From positions 636,141 through 700,140 of the forward strand of contig NMRA01000098.1 in the NCBI GenBank assembly GCA_002633005.1: a DNA stretch of 64,000 nt. The letters are read 5' to 3'. Below are positions 1,811 to 60,970 of this stretch, in pieces (positions within the stretch are counted from its first letter, which is position 1; the number at the start of each line of letters is the position of its first letter). The notes under the pieces were generated by a model, which did no database searches, was not told where the DNA came from, and saw nothing but the letters and a program-made list of their open reading frames with translations. Source of the stretch: Phoronis australis. Lineage: Eukaryota; Animalia; Phoronida. The position numbers and the translations under genes were made by a program.

Positions 1811-4214
1811 TAGAAATAGTAATGACAAATATCACAATAATAGTAACGCGAACGATTAGGACAATGCCAATAATGAAGTTTCGTTGCTACCATAAAATAT
1901 TGTTAGTTATACGTTTCAAGATATACACGTAGAACAACCTGCAGCAGATTCCATTTCTTTTACGCAGCAATAACTCATTTTTCATTGGTGAAACAGGGTC
2001 AAACTGACAAATAGAAAATAAAGCTCCATTTACAAGCACGAAAAACTCATTAACTTCATAAACAGCATTTCATCACTTTTAATGTACCCGACAAATATGA
2101 TTTCATTATAAGTACGGTGAAACGCAACGGCGTCATTTTTTGGCATCTTGAAATGTACAGGGTGGTAGGTGAGCACTGCAGGAGCCAGGGGATCCCAAAT
2201 CACCAAGCCCACAGTTTATTGCCAAAATGCTGGGACGATTTATTACGGGAGATTGGGGAGGCAAAGCTGACGTTACACGTCTTTAATGGGGAATGTGTGA
2301 TATCGTTTTCTTCTGCTGCACGTGAGTGCAAATCTACACACGGTATCGCCACCTGTTTTATGCTTCTGACTACGCTACCGCAAAAGCTCATTCGGCGGTA
2401 TAACTTCTTTGTTTCATGACAAAGCTGCGTTTGATTTATTAGCTTGTTTCATAAGAAATCTAAATGGAATGCACTGATCAGATACTTTTGACTCACCCAT
2501 TTAAGATGTTCGTCATTTGCCTGCATCAGGTTTTGTGCGATGGAACGGGTATAAATTTCTGCACTCTGTCGTATCTGCGCAATACTTCTACCGTTATACA
2601 CATATCGAGGCTGTGTATTAACAAGCGACGCTGTGAAGTTTCAGAAACTCACCATGAAACATATGGTAAGCTGAAGAAGGTACCATTAAAGTCGCTTATT
2701 TAAAAAAAAAAACTTTGACTGTAATAGATTTGACCGTATAAGCAGCAATATATTCCATTAGTGCCTTGGTTAGAACTGCTCTCCTCATGATGGCATATAA
2801 AATATTTCTAAATGTCATTTTGCTTTTATTTCCTCCAACTTCTTACTATTAAAGTCAGTTACAAATACATTGAAGGCGGCGGAAGCAGATCGTCACCCAC
2901 ATTTTCAGCGTCGCTTGCTGTATAAATGTAACTGCAGTTCTTATTTCTCACGTTTCACACTACTTATCATAAATTATGACCTTATGTCACATCCAGCGTT
3001 TTCATCGTTTCATTAAAAAGTTCACTTTGGAACCTCACCCATGTTGTCTTCGCATTATTAGGTAAGAAATTTATTGCATCAACAAACAAGTACAAAAACA
3101 AAATGTAATTCAGCTTACCACCTTAAAAATATTACTACTGGACCATATGTAAAAGTTATGCCTGCTGCAACAGAACGACCACTTCTCCTGGAAGCGTTCA
3201 GGCGTAACTTTTTCCAGGTTGCGATATTGACAAATTTCACGCAATAATAATTGAAAACTAGGTTTAGCATTTTACAACCGGTGCTTATGATAATGATATT
3301 GTGTTGAGCAGAGAATTAAATTGACAACTTCCAACCTACTGGTTTGGTTAGAGGGTTATTACACTGATCTATCATCCACGACAAAAATTGAACAAATGTA
3401 AGTCTAAAACTGTTTCTTTCTTTCTTTCTTTCTTTACTTTGCTCACGGAAAGAGCACAAAAGCTGCTGGCGACTAGCTTTATGCAAATAAGAGTTTGCCG
3501 TCTTCAAATTCACCATTTGTTCAATTTTTCTTCAAACATTTCCTTTCGCGACTGGTCTTGTTAAGTTTCAAAGTAATTCAAAATGAAGGTAAATGTGCCA
3601 AGAAATTTATCTACCCGATGAGTGAGGAGGAATTTCTCGGATTATATGTGTGTTTACATATTTATGTTTATTATGTAGATAACGTAATGTTTAATTAACG
3701 TAACGTAAGGTATTGAAATTTTTAAATCAGGAGTTATACTGTTGGATATGAGATGTCGCAAGGCGGGAGTACACTGTAATCTTTCAGGGGAAAGGTCCGC
3801 ATAAGTCCTAAAATCGGCATGCTGACGACGTTTCCTTCTTTATTTCGTTGGTCATGTCCGTAGTCCTTCCCCCTCCTCTTAAATCAGCTTATTAGTTAGA
3901 ATACGTTGATGTCTTCCGAACGCCAATCATAAGCCGGTGGTGGTTTTCAAAAGAAATTTGCAATGCTGTACATTCGCTGTTGTAGCCAGACCTTCTGCCT
4001 AAATTATAAAGACATCCCTTGCTAAAAGTTAGGCGTCCTTTACAAAACGACATGTCCCTAATTATAGAAATCTGACGTTTAAGCAATGCGACTTGAAGTC
4101 TACAAAGGACTATTCACTTTTAAATTTCGTTCACCGAGTCCCTAGATACCATGCAGTACACAGATTGGCCTTGTCCTAGTCAGTGAGAAACTCGGTGTCT
4201 TTCCCGACTCATCC

Positions 4215-4535
4215 CAGGGGCGGATCCAGGATTTTGAGTTAGAGGCGGCCAGGGTACAAGAATAACCAGAATTTCGTCACATATGCGCGCCCAGCCTAAA
4301 ATGTAGGAATTCCGGAGTCTCAAATATTTGCGTTTGCGGATCTTATTACTAAAAAAATATAAAAAATAATATAAAAAACGGTAAACGGGGTTTGCTCAAG
4401 GCCTATGCATTGTGCATTCGCACCCCGAACCCCCTGGGTGCTCGCATATGCTAGTCAGCAATTCGCACCCCGAACTCCCAAATGGTATCTGGGAGAATTT
4501 TTGGGGAGGGGTATGGCCCCCTTGCATCCTTCTGC
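4215..4535. mobile_element. Truncated CAGGGGCGGAT-family element
   Basis: Shares left terminus and internal sequence with the 7180 and 43320 copies; no right TIR seen. Confidence 0.7.
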
Positions 4536-5724
4536 ATAGTGATTTGTGTAGGCTTTTGTTGAATTGAATGACGCCAACAGTTAAGGCTTGTTATCGGAAA
4601 TACAGAAATGTGAGTGAATAATGCAAAAAGACTTCGCGCATCGACCCACTTCATGGAGAAAAGCACAACCGTTATATTTTATTCATGAAGTATTGCAACT
4701 ACGAAAAGTAAGATTTTGTGTACAAAATTTAAGTCAAATTGTTACATTGGGTTTCTATCTGTAGCACCCGTGACACTAATTCACAGACAGCTTACATGTC
4801 TATCTGAACAGCTCCATAATTTTGTCTTGTCTAAGCCACGTGTACACAAAGACCCGGTATTAGGACAATTTAAAGCACTGTACACGTGGCGTAATCAAAA
4901 GTCAAATAAGTTGAAGTGACTTAGCACCCGTTGAGTCTTTTTCCTGCGAACAGTTTATAGATCTGGGTTGATGTATTCCGTGAGCTCATACCTCTCGCCA
5001 AAAAGATAGATCACAGACGACCACGCTAATGAAAGGCGAGCGTTTCGCAAGCATGCCTGGCAGCGTAGCCTAAAAATGGCGGACCCTGATGCGATTGGTC
5101 GGTGAGTGGTCATGGAAAACACTTGACTGTTTCAGTTTCATAAGCGTAGATTTCTCGCCGCAAGTGCTTCGCGAGTGTCTTGGGTCTACGGAACGCAGCT
5201 ATGCGTGACAACCTTTAAAACCATCTAGTAATCAAATGAGTCATTGTAAATGAATAGTAAACATATAAGGGTAGATCCTTTGCATAAAATGTAAGTTACA
5301 TGGACCGAGAGAGAGGGTTCTGTACCTGCACATGTCCGATCTGGGACCAGTCTTTATTTGGTTTATTACTAATGCTTCTCTTCTACGATTTCTTCTTCCA
5401 TTAGCTTGCCTTGATTTCGTTGTTTCGATATACTGCCATTTCGTGTTCGTGGACCTGGGTCTTACCTCTGTACTCAATTAAATTGAGAGTCTGCGTTCAC
5501 TCTGAGGTGGAAATTAAATCCTGTACCCAGAGGTTTATCGGTTATGCAGCTTGCATATGGTCAATTCGTTTGTGAATAGCGACATCGGTCGCTCCAGGTG
5601 GCTTCAAAAGTAATATTCCCATCCGGGCAACATCACTTCGTAACGGAGGTCATCTGATGATCATACTGTTTTCCCCAATCAGAAGTCATTACTGGTACTT
5701 AAATAAGTTTTTGGCCACAATAAG

Positions 5725-7165
5725 ATTAGAAACCGGACGATCGCCGCACAAATAAAAAAAGTTCATGTTCAATTCACCGTTTCGTCTTTTTCATTAGACA
5801 TCATCAGGATCATATTTATAACAATTTAGGACAACAAGTGCCAACATACAGCTCAGGTAACATCCGTAGAGTGAAGTGAGAGATACATAGAATATAATCA
5901 GTAGCTGGTTATCCCCATAGTTGCAGGGTCACTGAGCTCTGCATGTTATTCAGAGAATCAGTAGCATGCTGGTTCTGAATGGCCAGTGACTATTTAATGT
6001 ACAGTAACTCCTTATTAGGTTCTCTGCAGATAATACAAACAGAGTTGACTTGGTGATTGTAGCTAATACAATGCCTATATATGTTACTTTCCTCTGAGGT
6101 GTGATGTTCGTTCAACTTGTCACAGATGCGTTTCTGTGTGAGTCCTATGTATACATAACATTGCTCGTTCAATAAAGGGATGGGTGATTTCAGTTTACAC
6201 AGCATATTGGAAAGTTTCCGAAGAGGTTTGAAAACAACTATCAGTTCAACTGCTGGGTCTATGCAATGAATAAGGCGAGACGTTTCAATTTTATACTATT
6301 TGGCCCGATGTAACCAAGAGAAAAGAAAACTTTCTTTTTCTCGGGTCCAATAACATCTACCTTATCTGCCTCATTCATTTTTGAAAGGAAGTGCCTTTTA
6401 CAGCTATTCAGAAAATTCAGAGGGGAAACCATTGGCACGCAATAACTGGAAAATCATAGCTACGTCACTATCAAAATTTAAATTGGTGGAGCATATTCTC
6501 CAGGCACGATGTAACAAGCAATTGACTAGACCTCTCTTGTACTGGATAGGCACAAAACTATCACATTTAAGATACACGGATGTAACAACGGTGCTATTCT
6601 CACGTTTAACCAAGACATCTAGAAAAGGTAAACACGACTAGCGCTCAGATTCAATGGTGAAGTTGATGGACGGATGCATTTTGTTCATGTGATTAAAAAA
6701 GGTGTTGAGTGAGCTCTTGGACGAAAACACAACAAACGTATAGTCACATACCTACGATAAAATTGTGTGACAGGCTGAAAGAACATCACACCTCATAGAA
6801 AAGTAACATATATAGGCATTGTATTAGCTATAATCACCAAGCCAACTCCGTTGGTATTATCTGCAGAGAACCTAATAAGGAGTTACTGTACATTAAATAG
6901 TCATTGGCCATTCAGAACCAGCATGCCACTGATTCTCTGAATAACATGCAGAGCTCAGTGACCCTGCAACTATGGTGATGACCAGCTACTGACTATGTTC
7001 TGTGTATCTCTCACTTCACTCTATGGATGTTACCTGAGCTGTATGTTGGCACTTGTTGTCCTAAATTGTTATAAATATGATCCTGATGATGTCAAATGAA
7101 AAGACGAAACGTTAAATTGAACATGAACTTTTTTATTTGTGCGGTGATCGTCCGGTTTTTAACAT
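5725..7165 (-). mobile_element. Penelope-like retroelement remnant (RT thumb + GIY-YIG endonuclease) flanked by ~300-bp inverted pseudo-LTRs
   Basis: Fragments KRGLVNCLLHRAWRICS...LLRANGFP and YIGLTQKRICDKLNEH; ~5730-6035 is the reverse complement of ~6855-7160. Confidence 0.88.
7075..7126 (+). ncRNA. Putative minimal hammerhead ribozyme motif in the PLE pLTR (mirror copy on minus strand ~5765-5812; partial at ~33972-33985)
   Basis: CTGATGA-t-GTC-aaatgaaaa-GAC-GAAA-cgtt: both core boxes, stem II and a palindromic AACGTT stem-III region; stem I pairing is weak. Confidence 0.5.
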
Positions 7166-7179
7166 TACCGGTACACTTC

Positions 7180-7427
7180 CAGGGGCGGATCCAGGATTTT
7201 GAGTTGGGGGGAGGGGGCAGGGAACAGGAATAACCGGAATTTCGCCACATGCGCGCGCCCAGCCTAAAGTATAGGGGTGCAGGGGTCTCGAATTTTGGGG
7301 TTTGTGGACCTTATTACTAAAACAACAACAAAAAACGGTCAACGGGCTTTGTTCAAAGCCTTCCAAATGGTATGTGGGAGAATTTTAGGGGGCCATGGTC
7401 CCCTTGGCCTCCCTAAATCCGCCACTG
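7180..7427. mobile_element. MITE, CAGGGGCGGAT...ATCCGCCACTG family, 5-bp TSD ACTTC
   Basis: TIRs plus ACTTC at 7175-7179 and 7428-7432; truncated relatives start at 4215 and 43320. Confidence 0.85.
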
Positions 7428-7860
7428 ACTTCTGTCGTGGATTGGCTCAAACGCTATGCGAGAAATGGAGTTATGAGGTTGAGTTGACCGTGTACCTGTG
7501 GAATATCACGTATTGCTAGAAATTTATGTACTTTTCATTCATGTCGTCGGAGATCAGGTGTCGCTGTTTTTGAGATCTGACCAATTACAGGCCGCGGAAA
7601 TCATATCCCTGACTGACGGTATTAGAATTAAACAAGGCGAACATACGATGGCTGTATATCAAAGGGGGTAATAACTTGACAATTTATTGCAAGGCGAACA
7701 AATCAGGGGAAAGAAGCACCAGTGGTAATATAAGAATACAAAAATAGATTGACCTATCAGACTTTGGCCTCGGGGGCACATCGCTCTTCTACGGTCCATG
7801 TGACGATGTGACGTAATACCACACTCGAGTATGTATTCTAAACAGCTGATACCATTTCAC

Positions 7861-9647
7861 ATGCAAGTTCCAGTGGCTGCTGCTCTTCTTGGGTCTGCTA
7901 GTAATAGTTCACACGCAAGCAGAAGACACCGAAAAACAACCTATGGAGATCTCACAAGAAGAAGACGACAACGGAATCCTGGGGGTTGAGAGAGAGATAG
8001 ACGAACCTGAGGATGACGTAGAAACACAGGACGTTGAGAAAGAAGTGGAAAAATCAGTCGACGAATTACAAGACGATGGCACCGACGAACAAGTTAACCT
8101 GGCTGGGCGACAATCTAGCCAGCCTAAACCAGATTTCTGCAACGGCTGTCGAAAAATACAGCGCCTGGTCAAGAGAGGTCCTCACCCAAATCTCTATGGT
8201 TTCAGCCACTGTTACGTAATAGGAGAAGCTGCGCTGTGGACGAGTAAATGCCGCTTTCCGGGGTAAAAAATACATTTTAGCGTTGTTATAAACGCAATTT
8301 TATTTGTCTTTCAATTCTCCTTCCCGGTGATTAAAACACATATCACAACTTTTCTTATTCATACACTAATCTTTTCTCCATTCTGCGTTTTTTCGTTTGC
8401 ATTCACGTAATAGGGGATTGAGGGGAGCCCATCCCCCAAGATTAGGCCCGCAATGGTGAAAAACAACGCAAAACGAGAAAAGATGTCCGGCACGGAAGCC
8501 TGTTTTGTGATTGATCTGCCTCTCTGTCGAAGGAAATTAAATTACACGAAAGTTTGTAGACCAAAACATGTAGCTTAATGCATTATCTTCCATTACAAGC
8601 TTTCGGGGCTCTGTTTCAGGACAAGTGACATAAGATTAGTAGGATCACATCGACATGTATGTGCACTAGAAAACACTAGTTTTTAACTGTCAGTGAAAGT
8701 ATATATTTACTTTAAGTGCAAAGCCTGTACAAAGAGATGTTTGACTCGTACCAATCTGTTATTAATTGGGTCACGTGACCACAATGTTTTTTTAGTGAAA
8801 TTTAGCGAAAAAGGAAGGTACAACATGGATAGCAAAACTGCGGTGTCAATAACGTGCTCAAGTTATATTTGATGTAAATGTTCAAGGTGCAAAAGTGGAA
8901 CATTTTAAGAACAATTCCTATGAGCTCTGTTGAGAACAGTGCATCAAACATAGTATATCTGAAAGTGTCATATGAATCCGATCAGCCATTTGTGAGATAT
9001 GATGTTCCGAAGTCAGCCAAAATTGGTCATTTTTATAGGGTCCTGCATATTGACAGATAAAATTATTTGGTTTTACGCTTCACATAAATATTTCTGAAAA
9101 ATAATTAGAATTCACTTTATCAAAAAAAAAACAAAGTATCTGAGAATATATCCATACCTGCTACTCGATAAAACAATTTGTTGAAATTATTTCCAGGCAG
9201 TGATGTGATAATAATTAGATGACTAAATCTAATTTGGTAATTGTGAAGCAGGGGCGTAATACCACGTGATAAGTCACTTTTCATGAAACGTACCCGGTAA
9301 TCTAGATGACAGCCATTTCTTGTATTTTGATTGGTACATATCTAGATTCAACAGTTTGTTTGCCAGACTAGTTATATCAGCATAGTGCGAGACAAGTACT
9401 TTGTAATATTTCTCGAAGTTATAAAACTAATATGGTAAGAGAGCCGCTGCCAAATGCTTTCAAATTCTATTCCAGACGTCGCTGCCGCGCCTATTGTACC
9501 ACCTACAAACAAGGAAAATGTTACACAGCGGAAAGATCAATTCGAGTTGGTTCGAGATGCTACTATTACAAAGGCAGAAGACTACCTTTTGGGTTCCCGA
9601 GAATGTTGTGGTTGCGCGTTCATTGCTGCGGCTGTGTGTATAAATGA
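7861..9647 (+). CDS. Two-exon secreted Cys-rich cationic peptide precursor (macin/CSab defensin-like; candidate antimicrobial peptide or toxin); exons ~7861-8262 and 9476-9647
   Basis: Hydrophobic leader KFQWLLLFLGLLVIVHTQA, D/E-rich spacer, then R/K/C-rich domain. GG|gtaaaa donor at 8263 and ttctattccag|A acceptor at 9475 are both phase 2. AATAAA at 9835-9840. The ATG at 7861 is 1 nt out of frame. Confidence 0.72.
8660..9080 (+). repeat. Dispersed repeat in the intron of the peptide gene; related to ~22130-22600 and ~51850-52080
   Basis: Shared gtcacgtg..aaatttagc and ctgaaagt.tcat.tgaatcc.atcagcca blocks. Confidence 0.6.
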
Positions 9648-10073
9648 ACTCTCAAATGCTTTCATCGCGCAGTGTGAACGTGGTAATTATAAACAAAAGT
9701 GTTTACAATAACTTCCTTGACTTTGCTGTTGTGGAAATTCTGATCGCCAATATGGTATCGTAATTTTGTGTTGTAACCCGTGCGGATTCAGCCACTTTTT
9801 ATGCTGAAGTCACTCGCGCTGTGTAACTTAAGAAAATAAAAAAATGAAATGTGCTGTAGGAACACTTTCAAGATTGATTCAATTTATTTATCGGAAGCGA
9901 CAGCTTTTTGCATTCGCTTATGGCTGGTCACCTGTGTAAGAAGTTGTCAGCATACATTCTCATGCAAATTCCAAGTCGCAATCTATTGAGTGTTTATGCT
10001 TGAAAGTATACGTTTTGTAAACTGCATGCGATGAACACTGATCACCACAATCGCTCTGTGTTGTGTGTGGACC

Positions 10074-10386
10074 CAGTGGCGGATCTAGGATACCATAAGG
10101 GAGGGGGGGGCCAGCATGTTGCCTCGGGGCCAGAATTGGGCAAAGCGCGATTGCACAGGCGGCCCGAAAGTTGTAGGGGGCCGGGGAAAATCTATAGACT
10201 AAAAAAACGGGAACGCGAACCCGCCGCGATCTGGGTTCTGAGTCGCCCCCCCCCCCTTCTCCACTACCGGTCCTAGTTACTGAACTCAATATTTCCTCAC
10301 GCTTCACGCTGTTGCTGCTTCATTTTGCTTGCGGCAGCCAAGGGGGGGGGGGGGTCCCTCTGCCCCCCCCCCTAAATCTGCCTATG
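10074..10386. mobile_element. MITE, CAGTGGCGGAT family
   Basis: Same termini and internal sequence as 1059-1353; flanks tggacc/tggtcc (imperfect TSD). Confidence 0.8.
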
Positions 10387-12554
10387 TGGTCCAACTTACG
10401 CATAGGACCGGACGAAGATTCAGACTACGCATACCCGAAGCAAAGGCGAATGCAAACGGTCGGAATTGTCGTCTGCGTGTGCCTTATCCTGTCAACTGGC
10501 ATGCGTTCCGTACAACCATGAAACTCGCGAAAACATAAGATTTCGCACGATATCGCCATGCATTACAAGCGAATCACGTGATCCAACTATCTTCATTTCA
10601 CTAGCAAAATCCTCGAGTCTAGAGAACGCAACCCTGAAGATCATTATTTAGACTTACTGGTCGCAAGTCTCCGTTTAGACTCCGCAAAACTGTCGTAAAG
10701 TTATGTCGTAATGAAACAGACCTCACAATACCTTCTTTAACCCAGGTTTATATTATTGTTTAACAATACATTTGACAAGTAGATATAATGTAACAGATAG
10801 GTGGGTATAATTTGTTAGCATTTCACATCGTTTCAGTTACAGCCTCTTGTTCTTTTAAGGGCAAGTCAGCTTTGGACGATTTTCCCTCCAGATTAACGTA
10901 GTCCTGAGTAAATGCTCGCTTGTACTCCGTACTAAAATAAAATGATAGAATTACAAATACACACTCAATTTTAAGTGTTGATATTAATTAGTGTTCAATG
11001 TAACAATTAAGCTAGCACAGGCCAGTTAAACAAGACCAGCGTTGATTCATGACAACGGTTTTGCAGCTGACAAGCATCAAAGGCAATCTTCATTGGAAAT
11101 ATGTCAGTTTAATGAGAACATTGTAAACATTCGTTCAAATGATCCCTTTAAAATTCCCGTATTTTCGACAGCGCTGATACAGCCTAAACGGTGCATGGCA
11201 CTCAGGCGTAAGTGTCTGTCTAAAACCCCGTCCACACGATTGCGTTTTCACAAGAAGAACCATACTCATCCACTAAAACGACAAACCAAGTTGTAAATTT
11301 AAAACATTCTCCAGAGTACTCATTGCACTCGTTTGGACGCCGATGCAAAAACGCAACATTTCAAAATCATAGACGCCTGTCAGTGACAATGGCTGGTTCC
11401 TCGCCAAAACACTAGATGACTGCTGTCTCTAAAAAAGCCTAACTCAACCACTGTCACATTTTTGTTACAGGGGCGGAGCCTAGTGATAGTCGCGAGTTTA
11501 AATCCCATTGCACGAGAACATAATATCAAGCAGTGTAGCAGCCTCATCCTCAAGCCTCAAATGGCTAAACCGATCCACGCCATCTTGAGGCTTGGGGACG
11601 AGGCTTGGGGACGAGGCTGGGAGTGTAGTAGAATATTAAACTCCTTGATAATATCTAGGCGCGAGACAACACCGTAGATAAAAAGTTCAAGCATATATTC
11701 TGGGCAATGAGATGGCAATTTTACGTGTCAACAGTGCTGATTGACATGAAAGGCAATCAGGTTTTTCAAAACAGTCTCTAATTTCTTGAGGCTGTGGAAG
11801 TCTTGATTAAGGTGTTCTTGAAAACACAAAAAGTTGGGTTTTAGGTCATATTCGTGTAGAGGGAAAACAATGTGAAACGATCGAGGACAAAAAATGAAAG
11901 AGCAGAATAACAACGCTATCGCGTGGACAGTGTCCAAAGCTAGCTTGACAGGCGTAAAATGACGCCGCAGTGTCAAATTCAAATCCGTTTTCCAGGCGAG
12001 TACAACTTGTGCCCGATCACAATGCGGAAGTGGACGGAAAAGCCGGGTCCTGCGGAACGGCATCAATTAGAAACTAATTACTTTAAAGCTGCTTTACTTG
12101 CGTTTTGCGAATAAGACTCTAAAATTCAAATGAAACCGAATTTATGGTATGTTACATATATGGTATACCAAGAAGTTCCCAAAGTCATGTCCCCTTGCAT
12201 TTTCCAACAACAATCTCGGAACTTTTATTGGGTCCCCAAAAAACTTGAAACATTGCCAATCAATTGGATCGCATATCGAAAGGAGACTCTGGACATGAAA
12301 CGAGCGTAAAAGTTGCCAAGGTTTTGTAGAATAGCTAAGTTCAATTAAAACCAACAAATTACTGATTATTTACAGTCAATCGTCATCAAAATGAAAACTA
12401 CCACAGGTCATTTAGCTATAGTGTCAATTTGCTTCGTGTAAAAGGCACCCGACTGTGTCTCTACATCCTGCCTCTTATACAACGCTTGTATTATAAACCC
12501 CTGTTCCGTCCAAGAACCACACTTTTCACTGACAACTTACCACCAAAATTTGTC

Positions 12555-18500: not shown

Positions 18501-21500
18501 TAGTCTTATGTTATGGCACTAGTCGGTAGACGCGAGTGTAGTCCTCATATTTGAAGTGTAGTTAAAGATTCATGCTAGTGCAGCTCCATTAATATCAAAT
18601 TCATTCCCGGTGAAAGCGGGAAGCCTGTATTGAACTGACTGACAAGTTAACTCAGATACCTAGTTCTAGTTAACGATTTTGGCCTTTGATGCCTCGGAGT
18701 TTACAATTTGAACACCTCAAAGCCACTATACATCAAGTTCTCGTGTCAAATACGACCTTCTTCACGAGCGTACTTGTTCATGTAGAAAAGCGTAAAATGT
18801 TGCGTTTTTATCATTTACTTGAACTGAAATTGGTGACATTAAAATGACTGAATTTTCTGAGGCGGCCACGTTTCATGATGAATCGTCAATAACAAAGTCG
18901 CGGCCACTCTTACGAAAAGGCTGTGGTTTAAAATTATCTCACCAGATATAGCTTAGCAGAAAAACAGTAGGCATCGCCACCGCCAGTTGGAGGAAAAAAT
19001 GATCCCTCACGAAGTAGGCAATTCCACACAGGATAGCAAAACCGGCGGCAAACCAACATGCGACCAGTGCACCCAAGTACATCCGGTATTTCACACCAGC
19101 TATTTCCATAACTGAAAGAACAAGAACAACGCAGGGCGTTGAAATGCGGCCACCAATGTATGGCGAAGGTGTGCTTCTAGGGGTGTTTATTTGGAACATA
19201 ACAATGGCCTCTAAATGGCGCAAAATACGTCGAATACATCTGAAAACTGGTATGTGTCATCAAAGCTATTTACCAAATTTCATAGAAATCCGTCAAGGAA
19301 CTTCTGAGAAACCGAGAAGAACGAAAAAAAAATGAAATTGCCACTAGGAGGCTACAGGTGCAAAAACATAACTGCCACTAAGCGGCGCCACAGTAGATGA
19401 AGTCGTAGGAAAATCCTCGTCAGACGTCCTCTTCACAGTAGAAACATTCATGCCAATTTCCAAAACGCTCCATAGAGTGGATTGGTTGACAGAGGGGCAG
19501 ACGCCAAATAACAAGACTCGAAAACAGTAAAAAATGGCCATAGAGGCGCACAATACCACAAGCTAAAACAAAAACCGGAGGATAGCGTCAACTCACAAAT
19601 AGAAGCCTATCTGCCAAATTTTATGAAAATCGGCAAAGGACCTTTGAAGATACAAAGGTAAACGTAACAAACTAAAATTGCCACTAGGGGGCACACCAGT
19701 AGTCCGATCCGTCGGAAAGTCGTCGTCCTCTGTTGTCAACTTTATATAAATACACTAGCAAAGTTCAACAACGATCCTGTTGAGCGTTTAGGAGATACAG
19801 CCATGAGCGCAAAAAACAAACAAAACTGCCACTAAGAGGCACAACATTAGTCCAAGTCGTCGGAAAATCATCGTCAGCAGCCCTCTTCACAGTAAGAACA
19901 TATATGTCAATTTTCAAAATCATACCTAGTACAGCAGTTTGGTTGATGGAAGGGCGGACGCCAAAAACAGACTAGAAAACATTAAAAATGGCCACTAGGT
20001 GGCGCAAAGTACTTCGAATCCGTCCGAAAACGGGAGGATAGCATCACCTCACTAATAGATGCCTAACTGCCAAATTTTATGAAAATCCGTTGAGGACCTC
20101 CGAAGATACAGAGGTAAGCGTAAAAAACTAAAATTGCCACTAGGGGTCACACCGGTAGTCGGAGAGGTACGAAACCCGTCGTCGTCCTTCGTCAGCTTCA
20201 TAGAAACACATCTGCCAAATCTCACCAAGATCCTGTGAGTGGTATAGGATATACAGCTGCGGACGCCGGACCCCCGGACAGAGATGATAGCAATATGCGA
20301 CCCGACATACAAATATGTGGGAGCATAAAAATCATTCTGCGCTCCGACCAGCTTCGGGGGTTTAAAAANNNNNNNNNNNNNNNNNNNNNNNNNNNNNNNN
20401 NNNNNNNNNNNNNNNNNNNNNNNNNNNNNNNNNNNNNNNNNNNNNNNNNNNNNNNNNNNNNNNNNNNNNNNNNNNNNNNNNNNNNNNNNNNNNNNNNNNN
20501 NNNNNNNNNNNNNNNNNNNNNNNNNNNNNNNNNNNNNNNNNNNNNNNNNNNNNNNNNNNNNNNNNNNNNNNNNNNNNNNNNNNNNNNNNNNNNNNNNNNN
20601 NNNNNNNNNNNNNNNNNNNNNNNNNNNNNNNNNNNNNNNNNNNNNNNNNNNNNNNNNNNNNNNNNNNNNNNNNNNNNNNNNNNNNNNNNNNNNNNNNNNN
20701 NNNNNNNNNNNNNNNNNNNNNNNNNNNNNNNNNNNNNGGGGGAGGGAAGATGGGGCGGAGCCAGGAGGGAAGGCGGGAAGGGGGGAGGGCGGGAGGGAAG
20801 GCAGAAGGGATCGGTGGATGGATGGAGGAAGGAGGGATGGAGGGGAAAGGGAGGGAAGGCGAGAAAAATATATTTGATTCAGAATAAAAGACAAGAGTAA
20901 ATGGAAGGAAATAAACCACATATACAAACACAAAAATTTGCTGACGTGGCATTTTCACTTAAACAAGAACAAGCTCAATTCTGCGTTCAGATTGGTCTTA
21001 CTTAAAACGAACGACACCGTTATACACCCTGCAGTCGCGTTGCCAGCGAGAAACCGCAGAATCACGAATGGCACATAGTGTCCGTACTGTGACGTCAGCG
21101 CTGCAGACAGGGACGAAAGAATTTGCAGGACTATCGACGCCAGTAGAGCCTTTTTACGACCATATCTAGAACAGTAGCATTGTTCACAGTTATGTTTTTT
21201 ATTTATACAAATTATAGTTTGCTCTTTAATATACCTGAAATACCTGACAGTAAACGCATAAATGCGTGAAGGTAGGTTACATTTCTGTAATTTAGGAAAT
21301 ATTCTCGTTTTCATGTTTTTCGATTGATAGAATTCATTCTGTATTCCAAAGTGGGAAGTTATTCAAAGCCCCAAAAAACTTTCAAGGAATCATTTCCTAA
21401 TCATAAATACTTACAGAACCAGACTGACTCCACATATTTCGTAACATGTTAACTCTTTCATTCAAATACTGTTTCAAAATTTCCATCTCTATGATATATA

Positions 21501-33210: not shown

Positions 33211-35052
33211 ACAGATTATGATACACTGTAGATGATGTTCACGATTGAAATAACGGATGTTTTTGCGTGAAACTGTTGCCAGTCAACCAGTGAATGAGTG
33301 GGTGATTTGAACTTAATGTCTTTAGTGTTCCCTGCATTTGATCGCTTATACAGAAAAACATCGTAAATTGTTTGCATGAGTTTTGGAACTACTGATAAGT
33401 TTATTCTATGCCCATTGCTTTCTTTCATTTCTATGCAGTCCTAATACATTCAAATCTAAAAAATAATTTACTATTTAATTGCTAATTTTAATATTGCTGC
33501 ATTATCAAATGTTTGTTTTTATCTATTGTTTATTCTTCGTTTATTATTATTTATTTATCTTTATATATTTATTTATTTATTCATTGTTTTTATTTATCCG
33601 CTGTTACTTATTTAAATTATTACCTGTGATCCCATACAGTCAACCTTCTAGCTGTCGTTGGTCAATAATCTATATCATATGATCATGGTATGGACTTCAG
33701 TGCATAATAAATATTAACAGTATGGTTTGGTAACCTGTTTGATAATTTTCAATAGGAAGTGTCTAAGGCAATGCTCTTTAAAAGCATATTGAGCCTTACA
33801 TCGGTGGCTACTTCGTTAGTATGTGTATCACCTTGGAAACCCCGTTACACTCAGTGACGATATGGTTTGTTTTGACACGGGTCTTAGAACATCAAGTCAG
33901 AAAAAAGGTGTCCATGTTATTTACTTTGAAGTTGGCCACTTTTACCTGCTGATGTCTGCTCAATATTCTTTGGACATCATCAGCGTAATTATTTACAAAA
34001 GACAACAAGTGTCAACATACAGCTCTAAAAACACAATGCCTGTTGTTTTTCTCTGAGGTGTGATGTTCTTTCAGCCTGTCTCAGAGGCGCTTCTGTATGA
34101 GTCCGATATAGAATTCCTTACAGTTGTCACATTCAACCTTATAAGCAACATTGCTATTGTTCAATAAAGGGATGGGTGACTTCAGTTTATACAGTATATT
34201 GGAAAGTTTCCAAAGAGGTTTGAAAACAACTATCAGTTCAACTGTTGGGTCTATGCATGAATGAGGCGAGATAATTGACGTTTCAATTTTATACTACTTG
34301 GCCCGGTGTAACCAAGATAAAAGAAAACTTTCTTTATCTCGGGTCCAATAACAGCTACTTTATCTGCCTCATTCATTTTTGAAAGGAAGTGCCTTTTACA
34401 GCTATTTAAAAAATTCTGAGGGCAATCATTGGCACGCAATAACTGGAAAATCCTAGCTACGTCACTATCAAAATTTAAATTTGTGGAACGCATTCTCCAG
34501 GCACGGTGTAATCAGCAATTGACTAGACCTCTCTTTTATTAGATCGGCACAAAACTATCAAATTTAAGATAAAGCCAGAAAAACTGGGCTTACGATACAT
34601 AGATGTAGCAATGGTGCTATTCTCACGTTTAACCAAGACATCTACAAAAGGTAAACATGTCTCGTCAGTCCTCAGATTCACTGGACAGGTGAAGTTGATG
34701 GACGGATGCATATTGTTCATGTCATTGAAATAGGTGTTGATCAAGTTCTTGGATGAAAACATAACAAAGTATTGTCAACATACCTACGATAAAAATGTGG
34801 TTTGCAATCCGGTGGACAACCAGCCAGAGCCTCAGTCTCAAGATTGTACATGGAAATATTAGCTAACACTGGTCCCAGGGGTGAACCCATGGCCATTCCG
34901 TCAGTCTGGTCGTAAAAGTTATCATCAAACAGAAAAGGGTCCTGTTTAACTGCGATCGTGAGTAACTTTCGTAATTGGTTGCGAGTCAAAGTTTAAGGAC
35001 CTTATCAGTATCAATGTACAGTTTGTTAAGACACAATTCAAAGACTTCATCC

Positions 35053-53150: not shown

Positions 53151-53603
53151 TGTACATGTATATTTCAAAACCCCAGTTACTGGAAGGTCTAATGATTGCA
53201 TCATCACTTTTGATGTCTAAGTTACGAAAAATTTTCCACTCAGGAAATAGAGCGATTGGGGAACAGTCAAACGTTACGTAACAGAACCGAAGGAATATTT
53301 GAAAGTGTCACATTTTCAACGTAAATTGCATTATTCGATCGATTAAAAGCATCATGAAATTTGCGGATAACATTTAGAAACTAAGTGACAACTGTTTGCT
53401 TTTTCCTGACCTTAGTTTAATCAATAACTATATTGGTTTGCAACAAGTAAATAAAAATCTGAAACTTAACTTTTTGAGTGAATACAGTGAATTACATAAC
53501 GTTATCATTATGTAAGCCCATATTACGAAATAAATGTCGACTATAAATAAGTCCAACAGCTTTTAACATTTTATTGTGTTGAACAGCAGTACTACTCATC
53601 ACT

Positions 53604-55118
53604 ATGAAGAGGCAGGGTGAGATGGAGGGTCCCGATGGCTTGCTTACCAACTTCGCTCGGAGCACCTCAGCACATGGCTTAGCCCGCATCCCAGGCACCT
53701 CCCAGCCAATGCAACGCGCTGTATGGGCACTCTTGGTGACGGCCTTGGCAGCTGCTCTCATATCAGCGCTTGCAATCGTCGTTTCCGTTTACCTTCAGTA
53801 CCAATACACCGAATTCGCAAAGAAAGTGGCACGCCCTAACATCAAGTTTCCTGTCATAACAGCGTGCAACAAAGTTCCTTATGGTCTACTCCAAACAGAG
53901 CAAACTGTGAATGAGTTTTTTAGGTCAATAGGGTTGGACGAGCCTACATGTCAAAGTGAAATTTCACCAGGATTGAATGATCCCATAATATATCGTAGAA
54001 TTAGCGACGCCGTTAGACCTAGAGTTCTGTACGAATACAACTCTAAAGTAATGCAAGTCTTAGGACAAAACTTGGACGACTTTATGGTGACGTGCGCCTA
54101 CCAAGGACCACCATGCTTTATTTACAGTAACTTCAGCACGTCTTTATTCAAAGACCCTTACCACTATAACTGTGTAACGCTGAAAGTTCCAGACGAAGTT
54201 CAGGTAAAAGTCAACGGTCGTGGAGCAATGGAGCTCGTGTTTTTCGTGGGGGACAACAAAACGTCGCTTCAAGGTAAACATGTGGACAAACTGGTTACGG
54301 ATGGAACAGTTGGTATAAAATTAATAATTCATGCAGAGGGAATGCATCCCAAATGGGCTAAAACACTAGACGTGGCACCTGGCCATTTGGCCAACATCGC
54401 TGTACGACCGCGCGAAATTTACAGATTAAAAGCACCGTATGCCAGTGATTGCATAGAGAATCCACCAGATATATTGGCTGCCAGCACGAACACTTCCTAT
54501 ACTTACTCGAAAGAGCTGTGTACATTGAAATGTTTCAACAAGCTTGTTGCGGACGCCTGCGACTGCATTCCCGAACCTGTCGTGGTGGATAAATTTGGCT
54601 TAGACTACCCGTATTGCGGAGAGTCTCCCTGCAATTATTCGTATATTTTAGATAAAATTAAATGTCACACGAACCTAACAGAGAGATTACATGAAGGTAT
54701 GTTGTCTAACCAGTGTCCAGAGTGCAAGTTGCCATGTGAAGAATTGACTTATGATACTGATATGCATCTTTCAAAATGGCCTTCGAAGTTTACGTCAAAG
54801 ACCATCACGAAATATATTTTAAAGAACCACGTGATTCCAAGAAACATTGAGAATGATTCTAGTGCTCTAGATTCATATGTTCAACAGAACTTTTTGAAAG
54901 TGGTGATCTACTTGGAAGACCTTCTTACAGTTGAGCAAACAGAGCAAGAGTCGATGAACTTAGCCCAGCTTACGTCTAGTGTAGGTGGCGCCATGGGTTT
55001 TTTCTTAGGGATATCAATTGTTACTGTGTTTGAGTTCATAGACCTACTAGTCAAGTCTGTACAGTCATTGTTTAAGAAAAAAAGCGTGGACAAAGTGTTG
55101 CCATTCCACAGCAAATGA
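53604..55118 (+). CDS. DEG/ENaC/ASIC-family (amiloride-sensitive) sodium channel subunit, single coding exon, 504 aa
   Basis: STSAHGLARI (HG motif), TM1 RAVWALLV..., FPVITACN, Cys-rich thumb (C..KC...CDC...CPECKLPC), SKWPS, TM2 SSVGGAMGFFLGISIVTVFEF. Confidence 0.96.
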   Translation: MKRQGEMEGPDGLLTNFARSTSAHGLARIPGTSQPMQRAVWALLVTALAAALISALAIVVSVYLQYQYTEFAKKVARPNIKFPVITACNKVPYGLLQTEQTVNEFFRSIGLDEPTCQSEISPGLNDPIIYRRISDAVRPRVLYEYNSKVMQVLGQNLDDFMVTCAYQGPPCFIYSNFSTSLFKDPYHYNCVTLKVPDEVQVKVNGRGAMELVFFVGDNKTSLQGKHVDKLVTDGTVGIKLIIHAEGMHPKWAKTLDVAPGHLANIAVRPREIYRLKAPYASDCIENPPDILAASTNTSYTYSKELCTLKCFNKLVADACDCIPEPVVVDKFGLDYPYCGESPCNYSYILDKIKCHTNLTERLHEGMLSNQCPECKLPCEELTYDTDMHLSKWPSKFTSKTITKYILKNHVIPRNIENDSSALDSYVQQNFLKVVIYLEDLLTVEQTEQESMNLAQLTSSVGGAMGFFLGISIVTVFEFIDLLVKSVQSLFKKKSVDKVLPFHSK

Positions 55119-59027: not shown

Positions 59028-60970
59028 GTGAAAACTCCCACATTCACCAAAACAGTTCTTCAGGGTCGGCTCACACAATGCAAGAAAAACGTAGTTTTCA
59101 AGACATTCCCGAGCATCCCGACCAACCTTCAAATCACGTCTTTCCAAAACGAACTTTTGGCAACAAAAATCGTGAATTTTGTGTCACATATATGCAAAAG
59201 CTTATCACATGGGTCTGCTGCCTTCAGCAAAGTAAGAGCATCATTTGTTCTTACCGGTTACACCAACTGGAGCAAGGCTACTGGCAAGACGTCTGGCTTC
59301 AGGAAGCATGAGGAGTCTGAGTGCCATAAAGACGCAATGGAACACACCCTGATACTGAAGTCGTCTGTCAAAGATATTGGGGAACAACTGTCAACAATCC
59401 GTGGAGAGCAAAAAGGGAAAAACCGCAGAATGTCCCTTAAAATATATAAAACATGAGTTTTTTGACAAGACAAGGTATACGGTTTAGGGGTGACGAAGAT
59501 GAGCAAGACTCCAATTTTATTCAACTGCTCCATCTAAAAGAAACAGAAACAGATCTTTTAAAATTATGGTTGTCGCAGAAAACAAATAAATGTACGTCCT
59601 CAGACATTCAAAATGAAGTGATCAAACTGATGGCTTTAAACGTTCTCCGAGAAATAGCGTCGTGCATTCGCGTCAGTCCCAATTTTAGTATATTGGCAGA
59701 CGAAACTACTGACGTGTCTAATAGCGAACAACTCTCGTTTGCATCCTATGGGTAGACGAATCATTACAACCCCATGAAGATTTCATCGGGTTTCGCCGCT
59801 TGGAATTGTTGGATACCTAAACAAGTACATCACTTCAAAAAGATACACTATGTTGCGAATGAACTTGTCTTTAAGCAGATGTCGTGCTGTGATGGTTGCA
59901 GCACAATGAGTGGGTCCAATAAATAGAGTCTTTGTCAACATTAACGAGGAAGAACATCGCGCCCCGTACACACATTGTCATGGCCACGCGTTGAATCTTG
60001 CTTGCTAAGATAGTATTACAAGATGCAAGTTGATGGCAGATGCTTTAGCCACCACCCACGAAATTACCAAACTGATGAGAAAAATCTCCCAAATGTGACA
60101 CACAGTTGAATAAAATAAGAAAAGCGTTGCTTGACGACAGAGAAGTGGGTAATATTGGCAACTGTGTCCAACGAGATGGACCGCGAAGGCTGACGCTCTG
60201 AATCGTGTGATAGGTAACTGGGATTGTTCACAGGAACTCCGGTCCTGGGGAGTCCAAAATTGCAATGGTTCCGAAATGAAAGCACGGATACGTGGAATTC
60301 AGTTCCACGTGACACAGTTTAGTTTTTTTTTTTTACGGTTTAGTACTCACAGGGAGCCTGTTTATACATGCTGACAGGCTGAGTACAACTTTACAGATGT
60401 CAGCGGCTCAAAATATTACTAAAATGAGATAAGAACGGATGAGAAACGACGGAGAATTTAAAAACGTCTGAGATGAAGTCGTTGCTGGTGCAAAGGATCG
60501 TCACGTCAAAGATCCTGGTCTCCCTAGGCGCAATAGAAAATCCGCTAGATACGAAACGTAGTTTTCTTCGATCCCAGAAGATTATGATCAAGGAATTTAT
60601 TTTAAAGCTCTTGACAATATCAACCCATCATTACGGGACAGGTTTGATCAAGAGGGTTACAAAATTTACATGCAGTGTTAGGAGCTGATAGTCAAGGCGG
60701 CAAAAAGGGGAAAACTTTGAAAATGAATACCAAGATGTTATCAGTCTTTGTGAAGACGATTTTGATTCAACACTGCGCTGTCACCTGGCTACGTTTGGGG
60801 CCAGTTATGAGCAGGAAGGTAGTCAAGAGGTGACATTGTCTTTTGTTGTGGATCATTTGCAGAAATTATCAGCCGGACAAAAACACTTGATCGCAAGCGT
60901 TATTAAACTAGAAAAATTCCTATTAGTGATGCCTGCAACAAATGCCAGCAGATAACGATTGTTTAGTGTT
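59028..60970 (+). pseudogene. hAT (ZMYM1/DUF4371-type) transposase pseudogene
   Basis: FPKRTFG, GYTNWSKA..FRKHEESECH, RQGIRFRG, SNFIQLL, TSSDIQNE, FSILADETTDVSNSEQL, HCHGHALNL, CPTRWT, VMPATNAS; many stops and frameshifts. Confidence 0.9.

What the first reader, a model, noticed from the sequence alone, without database searches (positions are those of the whole stretch)
7861..9647. Hidden two-exon precursor for a cationic 11-Cys macin/defensin-like peptide with a long acidic pro-region
Seen in sequence: two unrelated-looking ORFs join through a phase-matched GT-AG intron (8263-9475) into ~190 aa. The order is a leader (M)KFQWLLLFLGLLVIVHTQA, a ~60-aa D/E-rich spacer ending LAGR, then QSSQPKPDFCNGCRKIQRLVKRGPHPNLYGFSHCYVIGEAALWTSKCRFPGRRCRAYCTTYKQGKCYTAERSIRVGSRCYYYKGRRLPFGFPRMLWLRVHCCGCVYK*. 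Established: CxxxC...GxC...CxC is the CSab/gamma-core signature, macins (hydramacin, theromacin) carry SRC...LW..C upstream of it, and anionic propieces neutralise cationic AMPs and toxins. Inference: this may be an undescribed, enlarged macin-like AMP or toxin family. It has an odd Cys count (possible dimer), a possible pyroGlu N-terminus after R, and an internal KR site that could release two peptides.
Basis: partly seen in the sequence, partly recalled or inferred. Interest (0 to 1): 0.85.

Follow-up and report, generated by a model that had tools for sequence, protein, structure and literature searches.

The report
Orphan three-exon cationic defence-peptide precursor
An invertebrate animal gene, spliced from three exons and expressed in some samples but not others, encodes a 192-residue protein with no relative found, which is predicted to be secreted and to release a strongly positive, 11-cysteine peptide that likely acts in host defence, but whose cysteine spacing is not that of a macin.

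Summary
The gene is real, but it has three exons, not two. RNA reads splice a missed first exon (2599-2665, ATG 2654) to 7868 and join 8262 to 9476 (258, 60 and 0 reads in three runs). The 192-aa product has a predicted 22-aa signal, a 63-aa pro-region (net -21) and a 107-aa tail with 11 Cys (net +19). No homologue was found in any collection, but only single exons could be searched, which lowers sensitivity. The macin label fails on spacing: gaps 12-6-3-7-12-22-1 against 6-14-3-9-6-8-1. The block C-x6-C-x3-C-x7-C(GxC)...CCxC fits a CS-alpha-beta or a beta-defensin order equally loosely, with an oversized hairpin. A Spaetzle/neurotrophin knot fits the spacing but misses its marker residues. 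Folds of the exon halves were low-confidence and matched nothing. Best reading: a lineage-restricted host-defence peptide held quiet by a charge-balancing pro-region (0.5). Fold, cleavage sites, dimer and activity are untested. The scan's index showed no earlier finding of it on other DNA.

The parts
2550..2555 (+). TATA-like box (TATAAA), about 45 bases before the main 5' read end
   Evidence: sequence; function not tested
2599..2665 (+).
   Evidence: 133 molecules end at 2599 in X6 and 13 in X7; joints to 7868 and 7874; loose ends before 7867/7873 read exon 1
2666..7867 (+). Intron 1 (5,202 bases, GT-AG), holding dispersed repeats and the out-of-frame ATG at 7861; second in-frame acceptor ending at 7873
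7868..7921 (+). Exon 2, rest of the predicted 22-aa signal peptide (cut predicted after TQA)
   Evidence: hydropathy 3.46 in the best 11-residue window; the -3/-1 small-residue rule is general knowledge; SignalP not run
7922..8110 (+). Exon 2, 63-aa acidic pro-region (26 D/E, net -21), ending in a single Arg
   Evidence: boundary inferred
8111..8262 (+). Exon 2, first 50 aa of the predicted mature region (4 Cys, net +6): CxxC with an amphipathic stretch, KR at 8171-8176, first Cys of the C-x6-C-x3-C block
   Evidence: helix 7-22 in a low-confidence model
8263..9475 (+). Intron 2 (1,213 bases, GT-AG, phase 2), inside the cysteine array; holds high-copy repeat remnants at about 8730-9320
9476..9647 (+). 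Exon 3 coding part: 56 aa, 7 Cys (CxxxC, GxC, lone Cys, terminal CCxC), net +13, stop at 9645-9647
9648..9860 (+). 3' UTR with AATAAA at 9835; end approximate (an X5 contig runs on to 10149)
   Evidence: read depth falls from 133 to 5 between 9624 and 9900 in X6

Best explanation
This is an intact, spliced, expressed three-exon gene whose 192-residue product is predicted to be secreted and cut to release a strongly cationic, disulfide-rich peptide that likely acts in host defence against microbes. Shown: the exon structure, the transcript, the sample-specific expression, the charge layout and the cysteine array. Inferred: the signal peptide takes it into the secretory pathway; the acidic pro-region (-21) would mask the mature part (+19) during storage; a protease would cut at the single Arg, at the KR, or at both; the freed Arg- and aromatic-rich peptide would bind anionic microbial surfaces. 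The core is likely defensin-like (C-x6-C-x3-C-x7-C with GxC, ending CCxC) with a greatly enlarged hairpin. Whether it is wired as a CS-alpha-beta or as a beta-defensin fold is open. The eleventh cysteine would be free or link two chains. It is not a macin by cysteine spacing.
For: Splicing and strand. Expression: about 1,700 near-identical reads of 12.75 million on 7700-9900 in X6, about a fifth of that depth in X7, none on the exons in X8. Charges and composition: 14 Arg, 8 Lys and 16 aromatic residues in the mature region. Anionic propieces balancing cationic mature peptides are described for alpha-defensins and cathelicidins (PMC4571063, passages). The first three gaps (6, 3, 7) fall inside the avian beta-defensin consensus, and 6-3 is also the spacing of several bivalve CS-alpha-beta defensins (PMC5116183 supplement) and of big defensins (PMC2958110). 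The block was matched by 76 of 20,000 shuffles; with the terminal CCxC held fixed, the beta-defensin order came up in 18 and the CS-alpha-beta order in 143 of 20,000. All 11 Cys are unchanged in the allele of run X5.
Against: No activity data and no homologue with a known function. The shuffle patterns were written after seeing the sequence, so they overstate significance. The strict CS-alpha-beta and strict beta-defensin patterns both fail: the stretch from GxC to the terminal cysteines is 34-35 residues, against 5-6 in avian beta-defensins and at most 18 in the table rows seen. The gene looks single-copy at 80% DNA identity and the X5 allele differs by one conservative residue, whereas defence peptides often come in diversified families (general knowledge). 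PMC5116183 states that a CS-alpha-beta array cannot tell a toxin from an antimicrobial peptide. Tissue and treatment of the RNA runs are not given, so immune induction is unknown.
Confidence: 0.5

Rival explanations
1. It is a strongly diverged, enlarged macin: eight of the cysteines keep the macin order C1-C7, C2-C6, C3-C8, C4-C9 and it aggregates and permeabilises bacteria.
For: Eight Cys can be laid on the macin order (45 of 20,000 shuffles). Short motifs said to be macin-like (LW..C, SRC, W before CxC) occur in order, but those motifs are recalled, were fitted afterwards, and could not be checked against macin sequences (one search found none).
Against: Gaps 12-6-3-7-12-22-1 against 6-14-3-9-6-8-1. 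Of 33 macin rows in the table, 28 have a first gap of 6 and 27 a second gap of 14, and the C7-C8 gap never exceeds 11. The LW..C motif lies one cysteine before the CxxxC, which by recall is out of register with macins. Macins are listed at 54-78 aa. The 16 leech macin genes examined have one exon. The exon-3 model puts a strand, not a helix, on CxxxC (low confidence).
Confidence: 0.1
2. It is a diverged Spaetzle/neurotrophin-type cystine-knot signalling ligand: a single-Arg cut would free a 107-aa knot (C10 or C13, C47, C54, C66, C102, C104) that dimerises through C101 and acts on a Toll- or Trk-type receptor.
For: Domain length 107 against the 106 of Spz C106 and 102 of mosquito Spz1C, whose interchain Cys is residue 94; Spz is cut by a trypsin-like protease (PMC9427763). 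An extra Cys beside the fifth knot Cys marks some Spz and invertebrate neurotrophins (PMC2772990) and would explain the odd count. The gap of 11 between C54 and C66 equals that of the neurotrophin consensus motif. Gaps 36-6-11-35-1 resemble Drosophila Spz as recalled (36-6-13-30-1; not checked by a call). The exon-3 model is all beta.
Against: Only 4 of 9 specified positions of the neurotrophin consensus match; no Gln in the 8 residues before C47 and no Pro in the 9 before C102. With the terminal CCxC fixed, the knot spacing arises in 1,306 of 20,000 shuffles. The segment after the first Cys is strongly amphipathic and modelled as a helix, where a knot has a strand. Four more cysteines are left over. 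Expression is high for a signalling ligand (inference).
Confidence: 0.1
3. It is a defensive toxin or deterrent in mucus or epidermis that acts on predators' or competitors' membranes or ion channels rather than on microbes.
For: The same signal / acidic pro / Cys-rich layout and both defensin-type folds are used by animal toxins (general knowledge; PMC5116183 for CS-alpha-beta). Expression is sample-specific.
Against: No similarity to any toxin family in Pfam or the PDB. No sign of a duplicated, diversified family.
Confidence: 0.13
4. It is a non-defence secretory protein, such as a cationic tube, adhesive or gamete-surface component, whose acidic pro-region prevents early aggregation.
For: High, on/off expression between samples; single copy, conserved between the individuals sampled; no relatives outside the lineage.
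Against: No repeats, and no Tyr-, Ser- or Gly-rich low-complexity sequence of the kind usual in structural secretions (sequence; general knowledge). The defensin-like cysteine block is rarer than chance.
Confidence: 0.12

Closest known systems
Macins (hydramacin-1, neuromacin, theromacin, mytimacins)
   Same: Secreted, cationic, Cys-rich; eight Cys can be placed in the same order (CxxxC, GxC, a Cys in the hairpin, terminal CxC).
   Different: Five of seven gaps differ; 107 aa and 11 Cys against 54-78 aa and 6/8/12 (10 in theromacins); a 63-aa acidic pro-region; no sequence similarity detected.
Beta-defensins and big defensins (trans-defensins; Tt-BigDef, Cg-BigDef1; big defensins reported in phoronid transcriptomes, PMC7203481)
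   Same: C-x6-C-x3-C start, a later CC, signal + prodomain + mature layout, a dibasic site, three exons with the ATG in exon 1 and a phase-0 first intron as in gastropod big defensins.
   Different: 34 residues before the CC instead of 4-6; five extra Cys; the second intron is phase 2 and inside the Cys array, not the conserved phase-1 intron before it; no hydrophobic N-terminal domain of the big-defensin type recognised.
Mollusc and arthropod CS-alpha-beta defensins (for example Crassostrea gigas defensin)
   Same: C-x6-C-x3-C, GxC and terminal CxC in order.
   Different: Hairpin of 35 residues; more than twice the size; helix at CxxxC not seen in the low-confidence model.
Spaetzle / neurotrophin cystine knots
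   Same: Prepro layout, about 106-aa C-terminal domain after a single Arg, terminal CCxC with a possible interchain Cys.
   Different: Marker residues (consensus G, D/E, Y/W, S; Gln; Pro) absent; four surplus Cys; helical N-terminal segment predicted.
Myticusin (Mytilus coruscus)
   Same: A large Cys-rich lophotrochozoan antimicrobial peptide of like size (104 aa, 10 Cys) listed with no homologues among known AMPs (PMC10608444 table).
   Different: Precursor described as signal + mature + C-terminal extension (PMC11767717); its cysteine array was not seen, so no direct comparison was made.

Membership tests
Macins | Cysteine gaps 6-14-3-9-6-8-1 (C1 to C9) | tested here: not met
   12-6-3-7-12-22-1 against 33 table rows; pattern with tolerance not matched
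Macins | Mature peptide of 54-78 aa with 6-12 Cys in even number as a rule | tested here: not met
   107 aa and 11 Cys, or 85 aa and 9 Cys if cut at KR; range from PMC10608444; PMC5116183 allows that some may have nine
Macins | Fourth disulfide C1-C7 | not testable with these tools
   C34 and C79 could form it by order only
Macins | CS-alpha-beta fold with an extra N-terminal helix | tested here: inconclusive
   Only exon halves folded, pLDDT 59 and 54; no fold match
Macins | Profile match | tested here: inconclusive
   No Pfam defensin or macin hit on either exon; the domain is split by the intron; that Pfam holds a macin model is recalled
CS-alpha-beta (cis) defensins | C...CxxxC...GxC...CxC in order | tested here: met
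   C47, C54, C58, C66, C102, C104; 104 of 20,000 shuffles match the relaxed pattern
CS-alpha-beta (cis) defensins | Short hairpin between GxC and CxC | tested here: not met
   35 residues; at most 18 in the rows seen (parts 4-5 of 5 of the table); strict pattern fails
Beta-defensins | C(4-7)C(3-6)C(7-10)C(5-6)CC (avian consensus) | tested here: not met
   Gaps 6-3-7-34: first three met, last not
Beta-defensins | Pairing C1-C5, C2-C4, C3-C6 on a three-stranded sheet | tested here: inconclusive
   Exon-3 model is all beta but low-confidence and lacks the first Cys
Big defensins | C-X6-C-X3-C-X13(14)-C-X4-C-C | tested here: not met
   First two gaps met; then 7-34 or 20-21
Big defensins | Phase-1 intron just before the Cys-rich domain | tested here: not met
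   Intron 2 is phase 2 and lies after the first core Cys
Big defensins | Prodomain ending in KR or RR, then a hydrophobic N-terminal domain | tested here: inconclusive
   A KR lies 22 residues after the acidic block; 24 residues follow before the first core Cys; no profile match
Spaetzle / neurotrophins | Six knot cysteines, with an extra Cys beside the fifth in covalent dimers | tested here: inconclusive
   A mapping with gaps 36-6-11-35-1 exists, but arises in 6.5% of shuffles once CCxC is fixed; ranges partly recalled
Spaetzle / neurotrophins | Neurotrophin consensus [GSRE]-C-[KRL]-G-[LIVT]-[DE]-x3-[YW]-x-S-x-C | tested here: not met
   4 of 9 specified positions; spacing matches
Spaetzle / neurotrophins | Conserved Gln before Cys II; Pro before the terminal cysteines in all Spz | tested here: not met
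   None in those stretches; features from PMC2772990; their offsets from the cysteines are recalled, as the figure was not seen
Host-defence peptides in general | Antimicrobial activity of the mature peptide | not testable with these tools
   needs a bench assay

The most novel reading that the evidence does not exclude
The mature domain is a strongly diverged Spaetzle/neurotrophin-type cystine knot: a protease-activated, covalently dimeric ligand in a lophotrochozoan, a group from which PMC2772990 recovered no Spz gene in 2009. It would be a candidate endogenous Toll-type ligand that sequence searches have missed. A less bold novel case, an antimicrobial peptide with a cysteine array not matching any described family, has a probability near 0.5 and would merit about 0.5.
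Probability: 0.1. Interest if true: 0.75.

Novelty: new variant of a known kind. Interest (0 to 1): 0.42.

Why it matters
Lineage-restricted cysteine-rich defence peptides are common in marine invertebrates, so one more orphan is not a surprise by itself. This one is well expressed, has an array of 11 cysteines that fits no family tested here, and likely comes from a little-studied group for which the paper searches found almost nothing on antimicrobial peptides. If it is active, it offers a new scaffold from a marine animal. Its array sits between CS-alpha-beta and beta-defensin patterns, which are held to be of separate origin (PMC7203481), so a disulfide map would be informative. The corrected three-exon model makes the precursor directly testable.

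Full report
Observation. The window is animal-type DNA of about 40% GC with dispersed repeats. The proposed start is wrong. The ATG at 7861 is one base out of frame with the hydrophobic leader and its frame closes after 42 codons. Reading upstream showed a TATA-like box at 2550 and an ATG at 2654 followed four codons later by a GTAAG donor. Laying RNA on 2000-10400 confirmed it. Exon 1 (5' ends piling at 2599) is joined to 7868 in 318 reads of X6 and 49 of X7, and to 7874 in 128 and 13 reads. The 8262/9476 joint is in 258 reads of X6, 60 of X7, none of X8, and in one X5 contig of depth 1,259. About 11-13 million reads (18-19% of each run) were read per run. All junction reads lie on one strand, as expected for a + strand gene in a stranded library. 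X8 covers the repeats as deeply as X6 and X7 but not the exons; no housekeeping control was laid, and tissue and treatment are not given. DNA contigs of X1 and X2 match the window over exons 2 and 3 without differences and lack the joint; they may be the source of the assembly and are not independent.

Anatomy. The precursor is 192 aa (190 from the minor acceptor): a predicted 22-aa signal peptide, a 63-aa pro-region with 26 Asp/Glu (net -21), and 107 aa with 11 Cys, 14 Arg, 8 Lys and 16 aromatic residues (net +19). Cysteines lie at 10, 13, 34, 47, 54, 58, 66, 79, 101, 102 and 104 of the mature region. Two cuts are possible: the single Arg before Gln1, which has no basic residue in the seven positions before it, and KR after residue 22. 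A cut at KR would leave an 85-aa domain with 9 Cys and a 22-aa piece with CxxC, whose residues 9-23 have a high helical hydrophobic moment (up to 1.0). The count stays odd either way. The X5 allele carries one silent change and one Arg-to-Lys change in the coding part that its contig covers (8082 onward), and keeps all 11 Cys (codons read by me).

Relatives. None was found. Every query was a single exon, and the cysteine array is split by intron 2, so these are weak negatives. At 80% likeness the DNA depth over the exons is flat (43.7 and 44.2 in X1, like other contigs at 42-49), which points to a single copy; one bin over the signal exon is higher (55.9) and was not resolved. Earlier scan notes call the genome a horseshoe worm's or a lophotrochozoan's, and one says echinoderm. 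My only check is the neighbouring channel ORF at 53583-55118, whose best solved relatives are FMRFamide-gated sodium channels; that family and a sister branch with phoronid genes are spiralian (bioRxiv 10.1101/2022.03.23.485451, passages). This fits a lophotrochozoan but does not prove it.

Is it a macin? PMC5116183 (passages; supplement 1, search and parts 4-5 of 5) gives the macin array as 6-14-3-9-6-8-1, with the C1-C7 bond as a possible defining trait. Of 33 macin rows, 28 have a first gap of 6 and 27 a second gap of 14. On the same order this peptide gives 12-6-3-7-12-22-1. Only the CxxxC and CxC gaps agree. Macins are listed at 54-78 aa (PMC10608444, passages), and 16 leech macin genes are single-exon (PMC12109416, passages; its supplement gave no motif hits). 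PMC6780910 (passages) describes the macin fold and mode of action. Membership is not met.

Other readings of the array. The block C47-x6-C54-x3-C58-x7-C66 with a later CC fits the first three gaps of the avian beta-defensin consensus (PMC4571063, passages) and the first two of the big-defensin consensus (PMC2958110, passages). The 34-residue last gap fits neither. Big defensins occur in phoronid transcriptomes, and gastropod genes have the ATG in exon 1 with a phase-0 intron as here, but the conserved phase-1 intron before the cysteine domain is absent here (PMC7203481: passages, first part and section 9). In 20,000 composition-preserving shuffles the relaxed CS-alpha-beta order appeared 104 times, the macin order 45 times and the relaxed beta-defensin order with GxC 9 times; both strict patterns fail on the real sequence. 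These patterns were chosen after seeing the sequence. A third reading is a Spaetzle/neurotrophin cystine knot. It would explain the 107-aa length, the single-Arg site and the odd cysteine in a terminal CCxC (PMC9427763, passages; PMC2772990, passages and parts 4-5 of 11; PMC2586362, passages). Tested, it is the weakest: 4 of 9 consensus positions match, the marker Gln and Pro are absent, and with CCxC held fixed its spacing arises in 1,306 of 20,000 shuffles against 143 for CS-alpha-beta and 18 for the beta-defensin order. The alignment supplements of PMC2772990 could not be read and may bear on this.

Structure. Only the halves could be folded, without alignments. Exon 3 gave an all-beta model at pLDDT 59, with a strand over CxxxC where CS-alpha-beta needs a helix. 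The exon-2 part gave two helices at pLDDT 54. No fold search gave a significant match. The fold is open.

Mechanism. The best-supported account is a stored-and-released host-defence peptide (0.5). Shown: gene, splicing, on/off expression, charge layout. Inferred: secretion, masking of the cationic part by the anionic pro-region as proposed for alpha-defensins and cathelicidins, proteolytic release, and binding to anionic microbial surfaces through a defensin-like disulfide core with a long Arg- and aromatic-rich hairpin. Against it: no activity data, no family expansion, and strict family patterns not met. Rivals are a defensive toxin (0.13), a structural or gamete secretion (0.12), a diverged macin (0.1) and a cystine-knot ligand (0.1).

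Novelty and score. Paper searches on macins, phoronid antimicrobial peptides and toxins, and lophotrochozoan Spz (listings and abstract starts only, unless cited above) showed no description of this peptide; the library lacks most subscription journals. It is a new variant of a known kind: a prepro, cationic, cysteine-rich secreted peptide with an array that matches no family tested. Interest 0.42.

Noticed in passing
window 53583-55118 (+): Intronless 511-codon DEG/ENaC channel ORF (Pfam ASC, E 1e-59). Best solved relatives are FMRFamide-gated sodium channels (E 7e-33); no protein at E 1e-40 among the 7,995 candidates scored, so it is a divergent member.
   Followed up: partly
window 7867 and 7873: Two in-frame acceptors six bases apart change the start of the signal peptide by two residues, in a ratio of about 2.5-4 to 1.
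   Followed up: yes
window 20958-21362 (-): Exon-sized match to a major facilitator transporter (E 2e-5), beside an assembly gap at 20369-20737.
   Followed up: no
window 34744-34992 (-) and 59450-59752 (+): Transposon remnants: a reverse transcriptase fragment and a DUF4371 fragment.
   Followed up: no
window about 4226-4520 and 7180-7420; 5880-6010 and 6870-7000: Two copies of a dispersed repeat and an inverted pair of another repeat inside intron 1 (read by eye); reads from other transcripts pile on them.
   Followed up: no
window 7848-7921: DNA depth in X1 rises to 55.9 from 43.7 over the signal-peptide exon; it may be a short piece of another contig, possibly a related leader exon elsewhere.
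   Followed up: no
window 2188-2196: A kB-like palindrome about 400 bases before exon 1; 8 such sites occur in the window, so it may be chance.
   Followed up: partly
window 19364-20257: A 456-base tandem duplication at 78% identity.
   Followed up: no
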